The notes under the pieces: generated by a model
Seen by the model: only the letters and a program-made list of their open reading frames with translations
Told to the model about the DNA's origin: nothing
The model's database searches: none
Assembly (NCBI GenBank): GCA_963836185.1
Contig: CAWIIQ010000001.1
Span: 480,001 to 544,000, forward strand
Length of the DNA: 64,000 nucleotides
Direction: 5' to 3'
Source: Candidatus Krumholzibacteriia bacterium
GTDB taxonomy: Bacteria; Krumholzibacteriota; Krumholzibacteriia; Krumholzibacteriales; Krumholzibacteriaceae
Made by a program: the position numbers and the translations under genes
Shown here: piece by piece, positions 12,362-44,173 of the stretch
Layout of the letters: the number at the start of each line of letters is the position of its first letter
Position numbering within the stretch: position 1 is the first letter of the stretch

Positions 12362-15225
12362 ATGGAGTCACATGCCTCAGCGCGTTTGCGCATTCTGTAT
12401 CTCTGTATGTCTATCATCGCGACAATCATTTCTTGATGGGTATTGCTGTTCCGGCTTCGGCAGATTTCACGCTGACGATCTACGAGCAGACGGGCAGCAT
12501 CAACACCTACACATTCATCGCAGGACGATCATCAGTGTCTTTACGACGATATGGCAGGGTCTGCCCGGGCCCTCATCTCTCGGGATACATCGGGTACGAT
12601 TTCGGAACGGGCGGGTGCGAGTATTACGATATCTTCTTCTGCGACTCGGAGGGAGACGGCTCTGGATATCGGGCCGGGTAGATCCGCTGCCGTTCGACAT
12701 CTTCATTAAGCTCGAGTGCTGGGACATCAGCTGCCCTGACGGGGAACTTGTCAGCGTCTCCGACCTGGATCAGCGCGGGAAATAACATCGATGCCGTCGA
12801 CGCTCGAGATCGATGGAGAGATGTTTTACGGCTCAGTCCGTTGTCGGAGGAAGTCTACGGCCTCTGCGATGAGCCGTTGGAGCTGAAGAACTCGAACTTC
12901 GCTGATCGAGCGCGCTCGGGCCCCCCGACGCTGAGCATAACGAAGATGGGTTGCGGATCGACGGTGATCACGCTCGAGTATGGGTTCAGAACCTGGTATC
13001 GGCCATGTGAAATCGTAATTGACTATCCTCACTCGGGAACGACGTACTACATCGGCAGGCAGCACTACGATAGACGTAGCGCAGAACACGTGTGAGCAGC
13101 TCAGGTTCGACTGGAGCTTTACAAGGGCGATATCGCTTCTGTGTCAGATCGCCGATATCACCGGGAAGGTGGTACGAGTGGTATGAAGTGAGCGACTGCG
13201 GAGGCGGGTCCGGCTGGGATTATCGTATCAAGGCGACGTGCCTGGCGAATCCGGCCTGCTTCGACTTCAGCGACTATTTTATCGATGCTTGACGGCGCCA
13301 GCGGCTGCGAGATCGTGGTCAACTATCCTCACTCGGAGACGACGTTCTATATCGGCGGGCAGCACACGATCGATATAACACCGGACGGCTGTAACGGTGC
13401 GGTGAGCCTGGAGCTGTACAGGGGCATCACGCGTCTCTGCCATATCGCGGATATCGCGGGGACGTCGTACGACTGGTACGGGGTGAGCGACTGCGGAAGC
13501 GGACCGGGAGCGGACTATCGTATCAAGGCGACGTGCCTGTCGGATCCGGGCTGCTTCGACTTCAGCGAGTATTTCACTATGGCCGAAGGCGCTGGAGGCT
13601 GCGAGGTAGTCGTTAATTATCCGGACTCGAGCGCGACGTTCCTTGTCGGCGGGCAATACATGATCGACGTGATGCCGAACACATGTGACGGCCCGGTACG
13701 CCTGGAACTTTATAAGAGTGACCTGCTTCTTTGCCGGATCGCCGATATGAGCGGCAGGTGGTACAACTGGGACGGGGTGAGCGACTGCGGAAGCGGCCCG
13801 GGAGCGGACTATCGTATCAGGGCGACCTGCCTGTCGGATCCGGGCTGCTACGATTTCAGCGATTATTTTACCATTACAGTGCAGGATACCTCCGATACCT
13901 CCATGGAGCACGATCCCCTCGCCGCTATCGGCGATTCCTTCTTCGCCTGGGTCGGGAACGGCATAGGCTGGGTCACCGCGGAGGATGGCTACATCTTCGG
14001 AGATGTCCCCTACTGGTTTGACGCTCTGATCTCGCGAAAATCCTTCGATCCCGCGAACGGGCCCGTGATGATATTCAGGGTGTTCAATTCGATAGGAGCG
14101 TCAAACTTCATGGGCGGCTTCACATCCGTGCTGCCGCCGACCAACGACTTTCATTACAATAACATCGAGATAGGCGTCTATCTCCACTCTACGGGAACCA
14201 TCCGGCCGGCCTGGGATGTCAACAATGCCGGGTACTGGTCGACGACTCTAGCTGCCGGGTTCTATGACATAAAGATCGAGCTCGGTGATTCGGAGGGCAC
14301 GGTCATGCTGGCGATCGACGATGTTGCCGGCTGGTCCTCGCCCCTTTCAGATTTCTCGGCCCCGGTCTGGTCGTCGGTCGAACACAGAACGACAGGAGGG
14401 CCGTATCATATACAGATAAATCCATATAACGAAGGGAGCAGGGTCTACGACGTATGGGCCTCGGGGACCGGATCGGCGCCGCCGCCCCCGCCTCCGCCGG
14501 AAGCGGCTCCGCACATCATATTCGTCGAGGATGTCGGTAATGACGAGGGGCGCCAGGTGAGGATGAAGTGGGAGGCGTCAGCCCTGGACGGGCCCGGTAG
14601 TCCGGAGCCTGTCACAGGTTACGCGCTGTGGCGCAGGATCGATACGCTGCCTGCATGGATCGATGTCGCGGCCGCGGCCGTTCCCGGCCCCGTACCGATG
14701 TATCCTCCCGGCGACTGGGATTATCTCGGCACCGTTCCCGCGTGCTGCGAGGAGACGTACGCGACGATCCTTCCGACACTTGCGGATTCGAGCGCTTCGA
14801 GCGGCGTCTTCTGGTCGGTCTTCTTCGTGAGGGCGCTCACTGAGACGCCGGAGATATATTTCGACTCAGCACCCGACAGCGGATACTCGGTATGTGACAT
14901 CATTCCGCCGGATCCCGGGGAAGATCCGGACCCGCAGCCGGCAGAGCATGACGATTATCTCGGCCGAAATTATCCCAACCCGTTCAATCCTGTCACCGAG
15001 ATCAGGTTCGGGCTGAAAGAGCATGGGCATGTCCTTATCAGGATCTACGACACTGGCGGGAGACTCGTCAGGACACTCGTTAACGGTGAGATGCCTGCCG
15101 GCGACCATGCCGAGGAGTGGAACGGTACGGATGACTTCGGAAGGATGGCGGCAAGCGGCATCTACTTCTGCCGCCTCGAGGCAAGAGAGCTGTCTTGCAG
15201 TATCAAGATGGTGCTCCTGCGATAG
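12362..15225 (+). CDS. Large secreted protein with three Cys-rich ~98-aa repeats, an FN3-like module and a FlgD-Ig C-terminal domain; several frameshifts in 12430-13285
   Basis: RBS GGAGGGG plus ATG at 12362; signal peptide ...VPASA; fragments join into ORF 13285..15225, which ends NYPNPFNP...SGIYF...KMVLLR*. Confidence 0.7.
13006..13875 (+). repeat. Three tandem intragenic repeats (about 294-300 nt, 6 Cys each)
   Basis: Units start at 13006, 13306 and 13600: CEIVVNYP...LELY.G...LC.IAD...VSDCG.G...DYRI.ATCL..P.C.DFS.YF. Confidence 0.9.
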
Positions 15226-38707: not shown

Positions 38708-40076
38708 TTATTTTACGGTCCTTTCCGAGATGTCCACGCGGCCGCTGTCATAGTGCCCGCGCAGAATCGTCGGTACCCCGTCATCGCCGACGACCACTTC
38801 GAGCCTGAAGAAGTCGAGCTCATCGAAACAGAACATCGTTTCTGAGATCGCGTACATCCTGAACTTCGGGCGCTCCTCGCGCTGGTAGTACAGCTGACCG
38901 TCCTCGAACAGGATATTGCGGGGCCCGTACTTCCCGGCATAGCTCTTCATCGTCTTTTCGTCGATCTTGAAAGGTTCGCGGATCGCTTCGTAGCGTTCGA
39001 GCGCCCAGCCGAGACTTTCCTTCAGTTCGGGGATCTCCGCTTCTTCGTATAGCTTCTTGAGAGCTTCGTACTTCGCTACTTCGAGCGCGTCCTGCTGCGG
39101 AACCTGGATGTGAGGCTCGATTCCGGTGCCTTCCCAGTTGGTCATCGTTATCGGATTGACCGCGCGTCCGAAGGGAACACCGAGCTTGACGCCGAGGTCG
39201 GGGAATACCACAGTCGTGGTCGGGTGCGCCCCTCCGCCGGTCGTCTCGCCGATTATCGTGGCCCGTTCGAGGTTCTTCATGTTGTAGGTGAATTCCTCCG
39301 CGCCGGAGAAGGTCCTCCTGGCGGTGAGAATGTAGAGCGGTTTGTCGGCGAGGCTGGGCCCCTCGATATGCGACTGGGTCCAGAACTGCTTTATCGTGTC
39401 GGCCTCGCGGATGTAGAAGTTGTTGAGATGGGTAGCCTCCTCGAAGAAGTAGCTCGAGATGAGCTGGACCATCGTCGGGCTGCCGCCGCCGTTCTCGCGC
39501 AGGTCGATGATCACCGCGTAGCAGTTGGCGAGGAAGTTCATCGCCGCTACCGCCGTCGCGCCGCCGTATTTGGCGTTCGGCGAAGCCGTTGAACTTGAGG
39601 TACCCGATGTTGTTTTCGAGCCGCTCGACCCTTTCGAATCCGAAATTCGAATATGCCGCACGCGCGATGCGCATCTCCCTGTCATCGTCGGTCGGCTCAT
39701 CCTGCCTGGCGATGCGGATATCTTCCTCGGTGGCGGGGAAGACCCACAGGTGCCGGTCATGGCTGATCTCCTCCATGTCCTCGGTCAATCTCCTGGTGAA
39801 GACGTCGAGATCGTCGAGGTCATCGTATTTGCCCTTCTTGAGGTTTTTGGACAGGGTCTTGCCCATCTTTTCGGCCGTCTCGGCGAAGATGTACGTCTTG
39901 TCGAGGTGGAACCGGACGCTGTCGATGATCGCGGCCTTCGTGTCCTTGTCGAGTTCCGCGGCATCGGCGCCGGAGGGAAGGAACACGAGGAATGTCGCGG
40001 CGAGCAGCACTGCCGCCAGCACGATTATTATGAGCGCCATTTTTAAAGTATTGTGATCACCGGTCTCTGTTTTCAT
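38708..40076 (-). CDS. S41 family (IRBP-like) peptidase, secreted; frameshift near 39580
   Basis: Signal peptide; DRHL, NIGYLKFNGF / IIDLRENGGG, TFSGAEEF, GETTGGGAHP, WEGTGIEP. Confidence 0.88.
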
Positions 40077-40552
40077 CTCCTGTTCCTTTCTCCGATACGT
40101 TCACTGAGACTTCTTTCGTCGAAGGCGTCTTCGATGCCGGCGAGTCCGCTGAGAAAGTCGACTCCCGTCTCATCGACGACACCGGTAGTGACATCGCTGA
40201 CATCTTTCCACAGCGGCTCGAGCGCCGTTACCGTCTCCCTGCCTTTTGCTGTAAGGGAGATCAGGCGCCGCCTTCCGTCATCCGCGTCCCTTTCGTAAGT
40301 AATAAGGCCCTTGCTGTGCATCCCCGCGACCATCTGGCTGACAGCCGGGCGGGAGACCCCGAGTTTATCCGCCATCTCCGAGGCGGTGATCCCGTCCCTC
40401 TGAGAGAGCATCCACGCGGCGAGAAACCAGGAGTCGTTAAAATCGATCCCCCGGTCGCGGTAGACCTTCGACGCCTCGACCTTGAGGCGCTCGGCAAGCC
40501 TCTTCATCCGGCTCGCCAGTGCGAAGATCCCGAGTTCTCTCAGTGTGTCCAT
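40073..40552 (-). CDS. MarR family transcriptional regulator (paralogous to 26060..26563)
   Basis: ALASRMKRLAERL...ASEMADKLGVSRPAVSQ...DGRRRLISLT. Confidence 0.9.
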   Translation of the reverse strand: MDTLRELGIFALASRMKRLAERLKVEASKVYRDRGIDFNDSWFLAAWMLSQRDGITASEMADKLGVSRPAVSQMVAGMHSKGLITYERDADDGRRRLISLTAKGRETVTALEPLWKDVSDVTTGVVDETGVDFLSGLAGIEDAFDERSLSERIGERNRR

Positions 40553-40577: not shown

Positions 40578-40591
40578 GTTAAGCCCTTAAC
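40578..40591. promoter_or_regulatory. Candidate MarR operator
   Basis: GTTAAG-CC-CTTAAC palindrome 25 nt upstream of the MarR start codon. Confidence 0.45.
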
Positions 40592-40665
40592 CATCTCTGT
40601 ATTAATATACGCCTGATGGGTCTCCGTGTTCCAGAAAAAATCATTAGATGATGGTATATATGCAG

Positions 40666-40782
40666 TTACATGAGCCTGGAGGTGCCGTTGTCAGATCGTT
40701 CTGAAGGTACGGTGGTCACATCAGTTGATAGTGTGGCGATCACATCAGTTGATGGTGCGGTGGTCACATCAGCCTGAAGGTA
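40666..40782 (-). repeat. Four degenerate 24-25-nt tandem echoes of the lipoprotein gene's 3' end
   Basis: Units start (plus strand) at 40666, 40691, 40716 and 40740; gene copy at 40764. Each unit ends in a stop codon on the minus strand. Confidence 0.85.
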
Positions 40783-41303
40783 TAGGCGATCTCCCTGAAC
40801 TGGTCGTGGAACTGGTTGAACTGTGCGCCCCTGGTGACCCCGCGGAAGATATAGATAGCCGATCCCCTCTTCTGCATGTACTCGAGTCTCGCCTCGTAGC
40901 GCGGCTCGGTATCGATGACGTACAGGATGTACATCGTCTTCTGCCCGCCAACCTTGATCTCGCCGCTGTCCTCGTACTGGTAGTAGGCTTTTCCCTCGGG
41001 GAGCCTCTTCTTGTAGCTGTCGAAGAACTTCTCCAGGTCCGGGTCGCTCTGCATCCGCATTATAATCACCTCGAACGCGGTGCCCCTGATCTCGGGGTCC
41101 GCGCCCTCCTCAAGCGGCGCGTGAGCCGCGACGACCCTGCCGCCGCCCGGATCTTCCTCCACGGTCCAGTCTGCCGGGAAGGTGATGTGGAAGCCGTTCA
41201 CCTTGTCGCAGTAGACACCGGGATCGCCGGGGCACCTCGAACAGGAGAGCAGCGCCGCCGATGCAGCGAGAATACAGGTAAGAACGATGCAAGAGAGTTT
41301 CAT
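40764..41303 (-). CDS. Putative lipoprotein, PsbP-like fold
   Basis: Lipobox LLSC; GFHITFPADW; C-terminal F..IA.TFRL. Confidence 0.7.
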   Translation of the reverse strand: MKLSCIVLTCILAASAALLSCSRCPGDPGVYCDKVNGFHITFPADWTVEEDPGGGRVVAAHAPLEEGADPEIRGTAFEVIIMRMQSDPDLEKFFDSYKKRLPEGKAYYQYEDSGEIKVGGQKTMYILYVIDTEPRYEARLEYMQKRGSAIYIFRGVTRGAQFNQFHDQFREIAYTFRLM

Positions 41304-41471: not shown

Positions 41472-43894
41472 ATGGGCAACCGCATTATCCTTGCGGCGGC
41501 GCTTGGCGTTTTCGTCATTGCATCGGCAAGCGTATCCGTGCGTGCCGACTGGCCGGAGAATGGTCTATTGGTCTGCAATGAACTCAACACACAATCGAAT
41601 CCCCTTGCCATACCTGACGGTATGGGAGGTGTGATCGTGGTCTGGAGAGATTATCAGACAGGTGATGATATTTATGCCCAGCGGTTCAACGTGAGTGGAA
41701 CCCCGCTCTGGGACGCGCGTGGCGTCCCCTTGTGCACGGAAGCATCCAGTCAAACTATAGCCTATGCACAGATATGTTCAGATGGCTGTGGTGGTGTGAT
41801 CGTAGCGTGGGGGGACGGCAGGAATGGCGACTGGGATATCTACGCTCAGAGGATCGGCCACGACGGGACCGCACGCTGGACCGTCAACGGGGTTCAGATA
41901 TGCACCCTGGTTTCCAATCAACAGTATCCTCAGGCAGTACCTGATGGAGCGGGCGGCGCTTTGATCGTCTGGGAGGACTGGCGAAACAGCAATCTGGACG
42001 TCTATGCGCAGCGGATCGATGCCGGCGGGATAGTATGGTGGACCCACAACGGAGTCGCTCTCTGCACCGCGGTCAGTAACCAGACATGGATCAGAGCGGC
42101 ATCGGATGGAAGCGGGGGGATGATCTGCGCATGGATGGACTCACGCGCAGGTAATTACGATGTCTATTCACAGAGGGTCGACGGGAGCGGGAACGTCCAG
42201 TGGACAACCGACGGAATGCCTGTCGCCACTCTCACGACAGTTGACGGGAATCCCTGCATCATTGCCGACGGATCCGGAGGCGCGTTCATAACATGGATGG
42301 ACGGGAGGCCCGGGACGGACGGTATTTACGGGCAGAGGATCGATTCATCCGGTAGTCCGCAATGGACCGTAAACGGGGTATCGGTATGCAGCGCCGCAAG
42401 CAGTCAAGTCTACTCCTATCAGGACCTCGATGGAGAGGGGGGGATGGTCGTAACCTGGCTCGATTACAGAAACGGTATATATGATGTCTATGCCCAGCGC
42501 ATGAACGGTTCAGGAGTTGCTCTCTGGACGGTGGACGGGGTTCTTCTCGAGTCGCGTCCGCAAAACATGTACGACCCCAGGATCGTGTCCGACAAAGATG
42601 GAGGAGCGATCGTGACCTGGACGGAGAATGAAAACATATACGCTCAGAGGGTCGATGGAGCGGGAACGGTCCAGTGGCAGATGGAGGGGCTCCTTGTCTG
42701 CGGCGCCCCGGCCTACCAGGATGATTGCAGGATAGTGACGAACGAAGCCGGCGGAGCATATATCGTATGGCACGACTACCGGTCGGGAGATTACGACGTC
42801 TATGTGAGCAACGTAGAGCCTGATGGATCTCTTTATAGTGCGCCCCCCTCGATATCTTCGGCGAATGATGTGCCGGCCGACCAGGGCGGCTATGTCTATC
42901 TGTCATGGGACGCCAGCCGGGATGAGCGCTTCCGGGGCGATCTTGTGACTCACTATTCCATATGGAGGGCGATCGATCCCGCCGCCGCCCTTCTGGCTGC
43001 CGGCAGCGGAAGGCAGATTCTTGAGGCGGGCGCCGGCAATGCTTCCGTCATCCCCCTGGCTGCCGATATTCCCATCGGCGCTGTAAAGATGGAGATTCTC
43101 GACGGCGCGCCATGGTACTGGGAACTTGTTACCACACAGGAACTCTACTACCAGGACACGTACGGGCTGTCCGTATCGACACTCTGCGATTCCGTAGGCT
43201 TGGAAGAATGCTGGCACTACTTCCAGGTCGTGGCGCAGACTGCCGATCCGATGGTCTACTGGGCCTCGCAGCCGGACAGCGGGTACTCGGTAGACAACCT
43301 GGCCCCCTGCCCGCCCCTGGCGCTTGCCGGCGAGCAGAGTTTCACGCCGGAGGGGCTGGAGCTGACCTGGGCGCCGAACACGGAGCCGGACCTCGACTGC
43401 TACAACGTATACCGCGGCATCGGCCCCTCGTTCGACCCATCGCCCGGCAATCTGCTGGCCGAGGCATGCGACACACTTCTTTTCGACGGCGGCTGGTCGT
43501 GGGACTCGGATTTCTGCTACAAGGTCGCCGCGGTCGACGTACACGGGAACGAGAGCGGTTTCGCTCTGCTGTGCGCAGAGCAGGTCACAGGCGACGACCC
43601 GATGCCGCTGCCGGAGGCGACTTTCCTCGCGCAGAACTATCCCAATCCGTTCAATCCCGCGACGACGATTGCGTTCGGGCTTAAAAGAGTCCGGGTCTGT
43701 GTCACTCCGGATATATGACGCGGCCGGACGACTCGTAACTACTCTTGTCGATGAATCAAGACCCGCAGGCAGATATACCACTGAGTGGAAAGGCAAAAGA
43801 AGCTGATGGATCATCCGCCGCGAGCGGCGTCTACTTCTACAGGCTTATATCGAAGGAGTTCGAGGAGACCAGGAAGATGATCCTGCTGAGGTGA
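41472..43894 (+). CDS. Secreted 8-repeat beta-propeller-like protein with FN3-like modules and FlgD-Ig C-terminal domain; two frameshifts at A-runs (about 43685 and 43797)
   Basis: Eight DGxGGxxxxWxDxR...DIYAQR...W repeats; QNYPNPFNP; reconstructed end SGVYFYRL...RKMILLR* (TGA at 43894). Confidence 0.85.
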
Positions 43895-43955
43895 TAAGTA
43901 AAGATGATCCTGCTGAAGGGATGATTTTGTTGAAGCGATGATCCTGCGCATGTAG
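43874..43955 (+). repeat. Gene end (KMILLR*) followed by three degenerate echoes
   Basis: aagatgatcctgctgaggtga, then aagatgatcctgctgaagg (43901), atgattttgttgaagc (43921) and atgatcctgcgcatgtag (43938). Confidence 0.85.
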
Positions 43956-44084
43956 ATCTAGGGTTACGGCCGGATCCATATTGTCTGGTACTGTATATGC
44001 CGCATGCACATCTGAGCCGGTGGCGGATACTGCGAAGACCTGCTGCCATGACAGGATTTTTACGCACGATGGGACTGCCGTTTC

Positions 44085-44118
44085 AAAAAAAGCCACTCCC
44101 GGCGCCGGGAGTGGCTTT
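44085..44118 (-). terminator. Rho-independent terminator (possibly bidirectional)
   Basis: AAAGCCACTCCCGG-CG-CCGGGAGTGGCTTT with an A7 tract on the left. Confidence 0.85.
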
Positions 44119-44173
44119 CGTATTTCCTGACGCAAACAGGATATTTGCGAATTGCGCTGGTCAAGGCTCCAGT

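What the first reader, a model, noticed from the sequence alone, without database searches (positions are those of the whole stretch)
40666..40782. Four stacked alternative C-termini behind a lipoprotein gene
On the minus strand the gene ends YTFRLM*(tga). It is followed by 24-25-nt units reading ..HHQLM*(tga), ..HYQLM*(tga), ..RTFRTI*(tga) and ..GTSRLM*(taa). Every unit keeps a terminal stop, and the distal ones show synonymous swaps (agg>aga, ctg>ctc, tga>taa). The array is regular but has no unique spacers, so it is not a CRISPR. This is the clearest example of the echo pattern.
Basis: seen in the sequence. Interest (0 to 1): 0.7.

Follow-up and report, generated by a model that had tools for sequence, protein, structure and literature searches.

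The report
Decayed tandem copies of gene end
The four short copies behind this bacterial lipoprotein gene are real and vary in number between close strains, but they are likely ordinary copying-slip leftovers that survive because the first copy still ends the protein correctly, not a set of interchangeable protein tails.

Summary
The array is real: four head-to-tail 24/24/25/25-nt units (40666-40763) follow the stop of a 179-aa PsbP/DcrB-fold lipoprotein gene, and it is the top-scoring gene-end echo of 2,746 gene ends in this genome. It is a 98-nt lineage-specific insertion: three loci with the same gene end and marR promoter region have one copy only. One low-depth contig from a near-identical strain lacks unit 2. 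'Alternative C-termini' is not supported. HHQLM and HYQLM are read only by anchoring on the stop. The exact-repeat deletions give FRLM unchanged, FRTI, a frameshift or a truncation. All 25 homologues with an intact end keep AYTF. No reverse transcriptase was found in the genome and no recombinase nearby. Synonymous swaps are what drift of the live copy predicts. The operator rival also fails: a separate conserved palindrome is the likely MarR site. Best reading: a degenerate slippage minisatellite (0.7). One loose end: in the other strain unit 3 reads FRPI, the end of homologue P0019, so capture of foreign alleles is not excluded (0.15). The scan reached the same ordinary verdict on another genome (e1-7011263).

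The parts
40764..41303 (-). Gene for a 179-aa predicted lipoprotein, PsbP/Mog1/DcrB-like fold; its last 19-26 nt are the template of the array
   Evidence: ORF; Pfam PsbP E 7e-4, below the curated cut-off; model pLDDT 86.8; Foldseek top hit cyanobacterial PsbP 2xb3, E 6.9e-9, and DcrB 6e8a, E 1e-5. Lipoprotein status is inferred from the N-terminal hydrophobic helix and a Cys at 21 conserved in at least 90% of rows.
40740..40763 (-). U1, 24 nt; last 9 nt identical to the gene end, middle matches the post-array spacer (12 of 14); stop in frame with the gene
40716..40739 (-). U2, 24 nt; 20 of 24 identical to U1; missing in a near-identical strain
   Evidence: (one contig, depth 2.9)
40691..40715 (-). 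U3, 25 nt; shares a 9-nt exact repeat with the gene end; reads TFRTI* here and TFRPI* with the one substitution seen in run X2
40666..40690 (-). U4, 25 nt; distal copy joined to the ancestral spacer; last 19 nt are 18 of 19 identical to the gene end of relative L018 (the live end: 16 of 19)
40606..40633 (-). Conserved promoter-like block upstream of marR, outside the array (ECF-type look is recalled, not tested)
   Evidence: conserved blocks in 4 of 4 aligned loci; coordinates
40578..40591 (.). Palindrome GTTAAG-N2-CTTAAC, likely the MarR operator; unrelated to the units
   Evidence: present in window, L014/L026, L017, L018; single occurrence in the genome at 1 mismatch or fewer
40073..40552 (-). 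marR-family regulator gene, followed by an S41 peptidase gene
   Evidence: Pfam MarR_2 E 5e-14; Peptidase_S41 E 3.5e-21

Best explanation
The array is a lineage-specific, decayed tandem repeat of the gene's last 19-26 bases, likely made by replication slippage and likely without function. A duplication that includes the stop codon leaves the protein unchanged, so it would escape selection (inferred). The distal copy U4 stayed joined to the old spacer (shown by alignment). Further slips or unequal exchanges would then add copies, some of them hybrids of gene end and adjacent spacer (U1, U2; inferred). The extra copies gather point changes and indels and gain or lose whole units (one unit differs between strains; shown on one contig), while the live end changes only at silent sites (inferred).
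For: (1) A 98-nt insertion against 3 of 3 loci that share the gene end and marR promoter (L014, L017, L018). No echo was seen by eye behind the gene in any of the other close orthologues (L002-L005, L019). (2) Whole-unit variation: run X2 lacks 24 nt at 40716, which can be placed between the 14-nt identical ends of U1 and U2. (3) Enough time: 4-fold sites differ at 43-54% between this gene and six close relatives (about 0.8 changes per site corrected), against 0.23-0.42 for unit versus gene end. (4) Differences include non-synonymous changes and a 1-nt gap. In the array 5 of 11 independent substitutions are silent (my hand count), P=0.43 under duplication plus silent drift of the live copy. 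In the genome-wide tally it is 5 of 10, P=0.24-0.40. (5) Echoes are sporadic: 10 of 3,100 gene ends against 5.0 in controls, 6 against 1.3 at short range. The rate at 3' ends (9 of 1,017) does not differ from purely intergenic windows (4 of 738), P=0.58. (6) Other echoes in this genome are also absent from relatives. (7) No RT in the genome. The nearest of 4 tyrosine recombinases is about 570 kb away. No RT, recombinase or cas hit in 52 window proteins. No RNA structure (z -0.07) and no Rfam hit.
Against: U4 should be the oldest copy, yet its last 19 nt carry only 1-2 changes from the relatives' end (Poisson P 0.02-0.24 for 4-6 expected). The X2 form of U3 spells TFRPI*, the exact end of homologue P0019. 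At C1:266777 the echo keeps the relatives' Lys codon (5 of 6) while the live end has Arg. A model with changes in the echo only is mildly rejected by the silent-change excess (P 0.04-0.09), so the explanation needs live-copy drift. 3' ends show a borderline excess over 5' ends (9 of 1,017 vs 2 of 956, P=0.07). The six bases between copies match the upstream coding bases poorly in U1, U3 and U4. The strain variant rests on one contig of depth 2.9. No intermediate with one or two echoes was found.
Confidence: 0.7

Rival explanations
1. Scars of repeated allele replacement. Incoming DNA from relatives recombined homologously inside the gene and joined illegitimately just past its stop (homology-facilitated illegitimate recombination). 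Each event would leave a displaced gene end that had evolved as coding sequence elsewhere.
For: U4 matches relative L018 better than the live end does (18 vs 16 of 19). U3 in strain X2 equals the FRPI end of P0019, which sits in a different subclade from this gene. Silent differences exceed an echo-only model. The neighbouring genes turn over among relatives. The mechanism exists (PMC3240628, abstract seen).
Against: Four independent events landing at a 24-25-nt period are unlikely. Serial displacement predicts most decay distally, but U4 is least decayed. The gene and marR are about equally diverged from L018 (4-fold sites 25 of 50 vs 18 of 42), so there is no sign of a foreign gene body. The whole-unit deletion in X2 is slippage-like. 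The process was very rare in E. coli conjugation (3e-10 per recipient, same abstract).
Confidence: 0.15
2. Leftover attachment-site copies from small elements or cassettes that inserted into the gene end, brought a replacement end, and were lost.
For: The marR-S41 module is present behind the gene end in some relatives and absent in others (G004-G006), so the end is a junction of gain or loss. Such systems were noted in other genomes (e1-3015998, e1-1557272; unchecked notes).
Against: The units abut with no cargo or hairpin between them. There is no copy of the gene end at the far side of the module or elsewhere in the window: 2 matches at up to 3 mismatches, both in the array. No integrase nearby.
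Confidence: 0.05
3. Regulatory role: operator or activator sites for marR, or selected back-up stop codons.
For: The array lies upstream of the marR promoter. U1 and U2 contain a near-palindrome, and their stops are in frame with the gene's TGA.
Against: Relatives with the same promoter lack the array. The conserved palindrome at 40578-40591 is a better operator, and no unit-like sequence occurs near 11 other marR homologue loci. One in-frame unit is lost in X2. U3 and U4 are out of frame.
Confidence: 0.05
4. A functional reservoir of alternative C-termini, switched in by recombination.
For: A 9-nt exact repeat between the gene end and U3 would allow a deletion giving FRTI with the conserved F kept. 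I, L and T occur naturally at the last residue of homologues.
Against: Only one clean alternative is reachable, it changes two residues, it would be irreversible, and it differs between strains (Thr vs Pro). U1 and U2 are frameshifted, and U4 has lost the conserved F, which lies in a short terminal strand in the model. No recombinase or RT. Not conserved in any relative examined. No joint fusing the gene to a unit was listed in the seven runs laid, but only one contig covers the array.
Confidence: 0.03

Closest known systems
Bacterial intergenic minisatellites / VNTRs (variable segments of PMC2884548; passages read)
   Same: Head-to-tail units of 20 nt or more, intergenic, varying by whole units between close strains, absent in relatives.
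   Different: More decayed (U1-U2 83%, other pairs lower; below that paper's 90% cut-off), mosaic, and seeded on a gene's stop codon.
Integrative elements that enter a gene's 3' end and restore it (displaced-end att sites; recalled, and named in earlier scan notes)
   Same: A spare copy of the gene end downstream, differing at silent sites.
   Different: No element, integrase or hairpin between the copies; four copies at a 24-25-nt period.
Shufflons and other recombinational C-terminal switches (e.g. R64 pilV/Rci; recalled)
   Same: Only the idea of alternative ends behind one gene.
   Different: No inverted sites, no recombinase, units of 8 codons or fewer, mostly unreachable in frame.
Beggiatoaceae intergenic TAACTGA direct repeats (PMC4679880; abstract and outline seen)
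   Same: Intergenic direct repeats that contain stop codons.
   Different: Those are one heptamer at 169 sites per genome, next to start codons; this unit is locus-specific and derives from its own gene end.

Membership tests
Minisatellite / VNTR | Head-to-tail direct units of regular length | tested here: met
   24, 24, 25, 25 nt, no gaps between units
Minisatellite / VNTR | Whole-unit copy-number variation between close strains | tested here: met
   24-nt deletion in run X2; one contig, depth 2.9, bridging on both sides
Minisatellite / VNTR | Units at least 90% identical (strict database criterion in PMC2884548) | tested here: not met
   Best pair 20 of 24; filed as a degenerate array, not a strict-database minisatellite
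Shufflon / invertible C-terminal switch | Inverted recombination sites and a linked site-specific recombinase | tested here: not met
   No inverted pair within the array; nearest tyrosine recombinase about 570 kb away; none in 52 window proteins. Serine recombinases were not searched genome-wide.
Diversity-generating retroelement | Reverse transcriptase and adenine-specific template/variable repeat pair | tested here: not met
   No PF00078 match in G000, 92.5% complete; differences are not confined to A
CRISPR array | Conserved repeats separated by unique spacers, cas genes | tested here: not met
   No spacers, no Rfam hit, no cas family among 52 window proteins
Gene-end-integrating element or hairpin mini-element | Cargo or hairpin between the live and the displaced gene end | tested here: not met
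   Units abut; fold z -0.07; no far-side copy
MarR operator array | Palindromic sites conserved with the marR promoter | tested here: not met
   Array absent from 3 of 3 loci with the same promoter; a different palindrome is conserved
MarR operator array | Protein binding | not testable with these tools
   Needs a binding assay
Homology-facilitated illegitimate recombination scar | Unit matches a foreign allele's end and downstream bases | tested here: inconclusive

The most novel reading that the evidence does not exclude
The stack is a fossil record of repeated allele replacement: each incoming version of the gene displaced the previous end, so the units are ends of different natural alleles (U4 like L018, U3 like P0019) and gene-end echoes in this lineage mark transformation events rather than slippage.
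Probability: 0.15. Interest if true: 0.45.

Novelty: new member of a known kind. Interest (0 to 1): 0.13.

Why it matters
If the best reading holds it matters little. It is a strain-typing marker and a clear example of why duplications that span a stop codon survive and can be mistaken for coding cassettes. If the allele-replacement reading held, such stacks would give a countable signature of one-ended illegitimate recombination in an uncultured lineage.

Tried and rejected
Genome-wide echo system: rejected, echoes are rare and not enriched over intergenic background; 81 genes with KMILLR-type ends mostly lack echoes by eye. One apparent echo (C1:222991-224232) was dropped from the silent-change tally because relatives show it is a Gly-Cys repeat inside the coding frame, broken by a frameshift in this assembly. 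That changed the tally from 7 of 12 to 5 of 10; the remaining six loci (five other than this one) were not all checked in relatives, and about one is expected to be chance. An ancient echo shared by the whole clade (gene end versus the next 30 nt) was significant only in the window (p 0.017), not in 7 relatives (p 0.16-1.0). RNA structure, Rfam family, and sigma-70 promoter or terminator inside the array: none. Dispersed copies of the unit: 3 other two-mismatch hits in the genome against 2 in the control; 2 single hits in viral contigs, with no repeats around them. No RNA holder listed, which says nothing on expression. Six of the seven runs laid do not cover the array. Five paper searches listed no paper devoted to stop-spanning tandem duplications in bacteria; I saw listings and abstract starts only, so this is not proof of absence. 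The DNA of the closest homologues (P0002-P0005) and of P0019 could not be obtained.

Full report
Observation. The minus-strand ORF 41303..40764 encodes 179 aa ending AYTFRLM*. Four units follow without gaps: U1 40740-40763, U2 40716-40739, U3 40691-40715, U4 40666-40690. The similarity to the gene end is far above chance: score 46 against a shuffle mean of 23.5, 0 of 2,000 shuffles reaching it, and first of 2,746 gene ends scored. The units are decayed: 17-20 of 26 columns match the gene end, and U1 and U2 have a 1-nt gap.

Setting. The window is G000:C1:480001-544000; three of four named relatives from the genome collection are titled Candidatus Krumholzibacteriota. The protein has a PsbP/DcrB-like fold. 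Downstream lie a marR gene and an S41 peptidase gene. Of 27 homologues, 25 have an intact end; all 25 keep AYTF, and 15 end FRLM (P0024 with a foreign tail and truncated P0026 left out).

Comparison with relatives. Three loci keep the same gene end, spacer and marR start (L014, L017, L018). Against them the window has a 98-nt insertion and nothing else of size. Orthologues with other downstream neighbours (L002-L005, L019) show no echo by eye. U4 is joined to the ancestral spacer, and its last 19 nt are 18 of 19 identical to the L018 gene end, whereas the live end is 16 of 19. So U4 keeps the ancestral Tyr-codon base and the TAA stop, and the live gene carries the derived states. The middle of U1 and U2 resembles the post-array spacer (12 of 14 with the window's, 10 of 12 with L018's) about as well as the gene end, so these two look like hybrids rather than pure copies of coding sequence. 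Four-fold sites differ at 43-54% from six close relatives, which leaves enough time for the decay seen.

Population evidence. In run X2 one contig (depth 2.9) spans 40624-40838 with a 24-nt deletion at 40716 and one substitution at 40699. This confirms the array outside this assembly and shows whole-unit variation. It is a single low-depth contig; the other six runs laid do not cover the array.

Can the units serve as C-termini? Deleting between exact repeats gives FRLM (three ways), FRTI (via U3), a 195-aa frameshift or a 172-aa truncation. HHQLM and HYQLM would be made only by read-through of the TGA. No RT was found in the genome, the four tyrosine recombinases are about 570 kb or more away, and 52 window proteins show no RT, recombinase or cas family. 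Silent changes are 5 of 11 in the array (hand count) and 5 of 10 in the genome-wide tally after dropping one false echo. That is more than an echo-only model expects (P 0.04-0.10) but fits duplication plus silent drift of the live copy (P 0.24-0.43).

Is it an operator array? No unit-like sequence occurs at 11 other marR homologue loci or in L017 and L018. A different palindrome at 40578-40591 is conserved in all four syntenic loci and unique in the genome.

Is there a genome-wide system? Echoes occur at 10 of 3,100 gene ends against 5.0 in controls. At 3' ends the rate is 9 of 1,017, in intergenic windows 4 of 738 (P=0.58) and at 5' ends 2 of 956 (P=0.07). Gene calls come from my own hexamer model on an assembly with frameshifts, so the counts are approximate. 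Three other echoes were checked in relatives and are specific to this lineage: window 43869-43956 against its one syntenic orthologue, C2:321277 against four and C1:266777 against six.

Mechanism. Shown: the insertion, its derivation from the gene end, its decay, one whole-unit variant, and the absence of a linked enzyme among the families searched. Inferred: slippage or unequal exchange as the cause, and neutrality because the first copy keeps the stop. Results against this reading: U4 is less decayed than expected (P 0.02-0.24); the X2 form of U3 reads TFRPI*, the end of homologue P0019, which is not a close sister of this gene; and at C1:266777 the echo keeps the relatives' codon. These keep allele capture by one-ended illegitimate recombination open at about 0.15. 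P0019's DNA would decide it and was not available.

Literature seen. PMC2884548: passages on minisatellites. PMC3240628 and PMC4679880: abstract and outline. Five searches were seen as listings only. Shufflon, att-site and ECF-promoter features are recalled. I stated the slippage reading before consulting earlier findings; e1-7011263 later agreed for another genome and is not counted as evidence.

Verdict. A real but ordinary degenerate minisatellite seeded on a stop codon. New member of a known kind, interest 0.13.

Noticed in passing
window 43869-43956 (+): A second stack: the end of a FlgD-type gene (KMILLR*) is followed by three decayed echoes. The syntenic orthologue in G005 has none.
   Followed up: partly
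L047 (G000:C2, gene end at 321277, minus strand): Two 22-nt echoes of the gene end, then a further tandem repeat; absent in four related loci.
   Followed up: partly
L048 (G000:C1:266777, plus strand): One 23-nt echo that keeps the Lys codon found in 5 of 6 relatives, while the live end has Arg.
   Followed up: partly
L014:1497-1560: G001 has lost the lipoprotein gene at this locus except its last 20 codons (90% identical), still joined to the marR promoter.
   Followed up: partly
window 38708-40076 (-): The S41 peptidase gene is split over two frames; the FlgD-type gene at 41472-43894 and several others in the window are too. Likely assembly indels; not checked with reads.
   Followed up: no
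window 40578-40633: Conserved palindrome (likely MarR operator) and a conserved promoter-like block upstream of marR.
   Followed up: partly
window 44085-44120: A short inverted-repeat element that recurs near other FlgD-type gene ends in this genome and in relatives (both orientations match).
   Followed up: no
P0024: A homologue whose last third is unrelated sequence carrying PF22422; possibly a chimeric contig.
   Followed up: no
window 13022-13868: A 294-nt tandem repeat, 2.9 copies, at the start of a FlgD-type gene.
   Followed up: no
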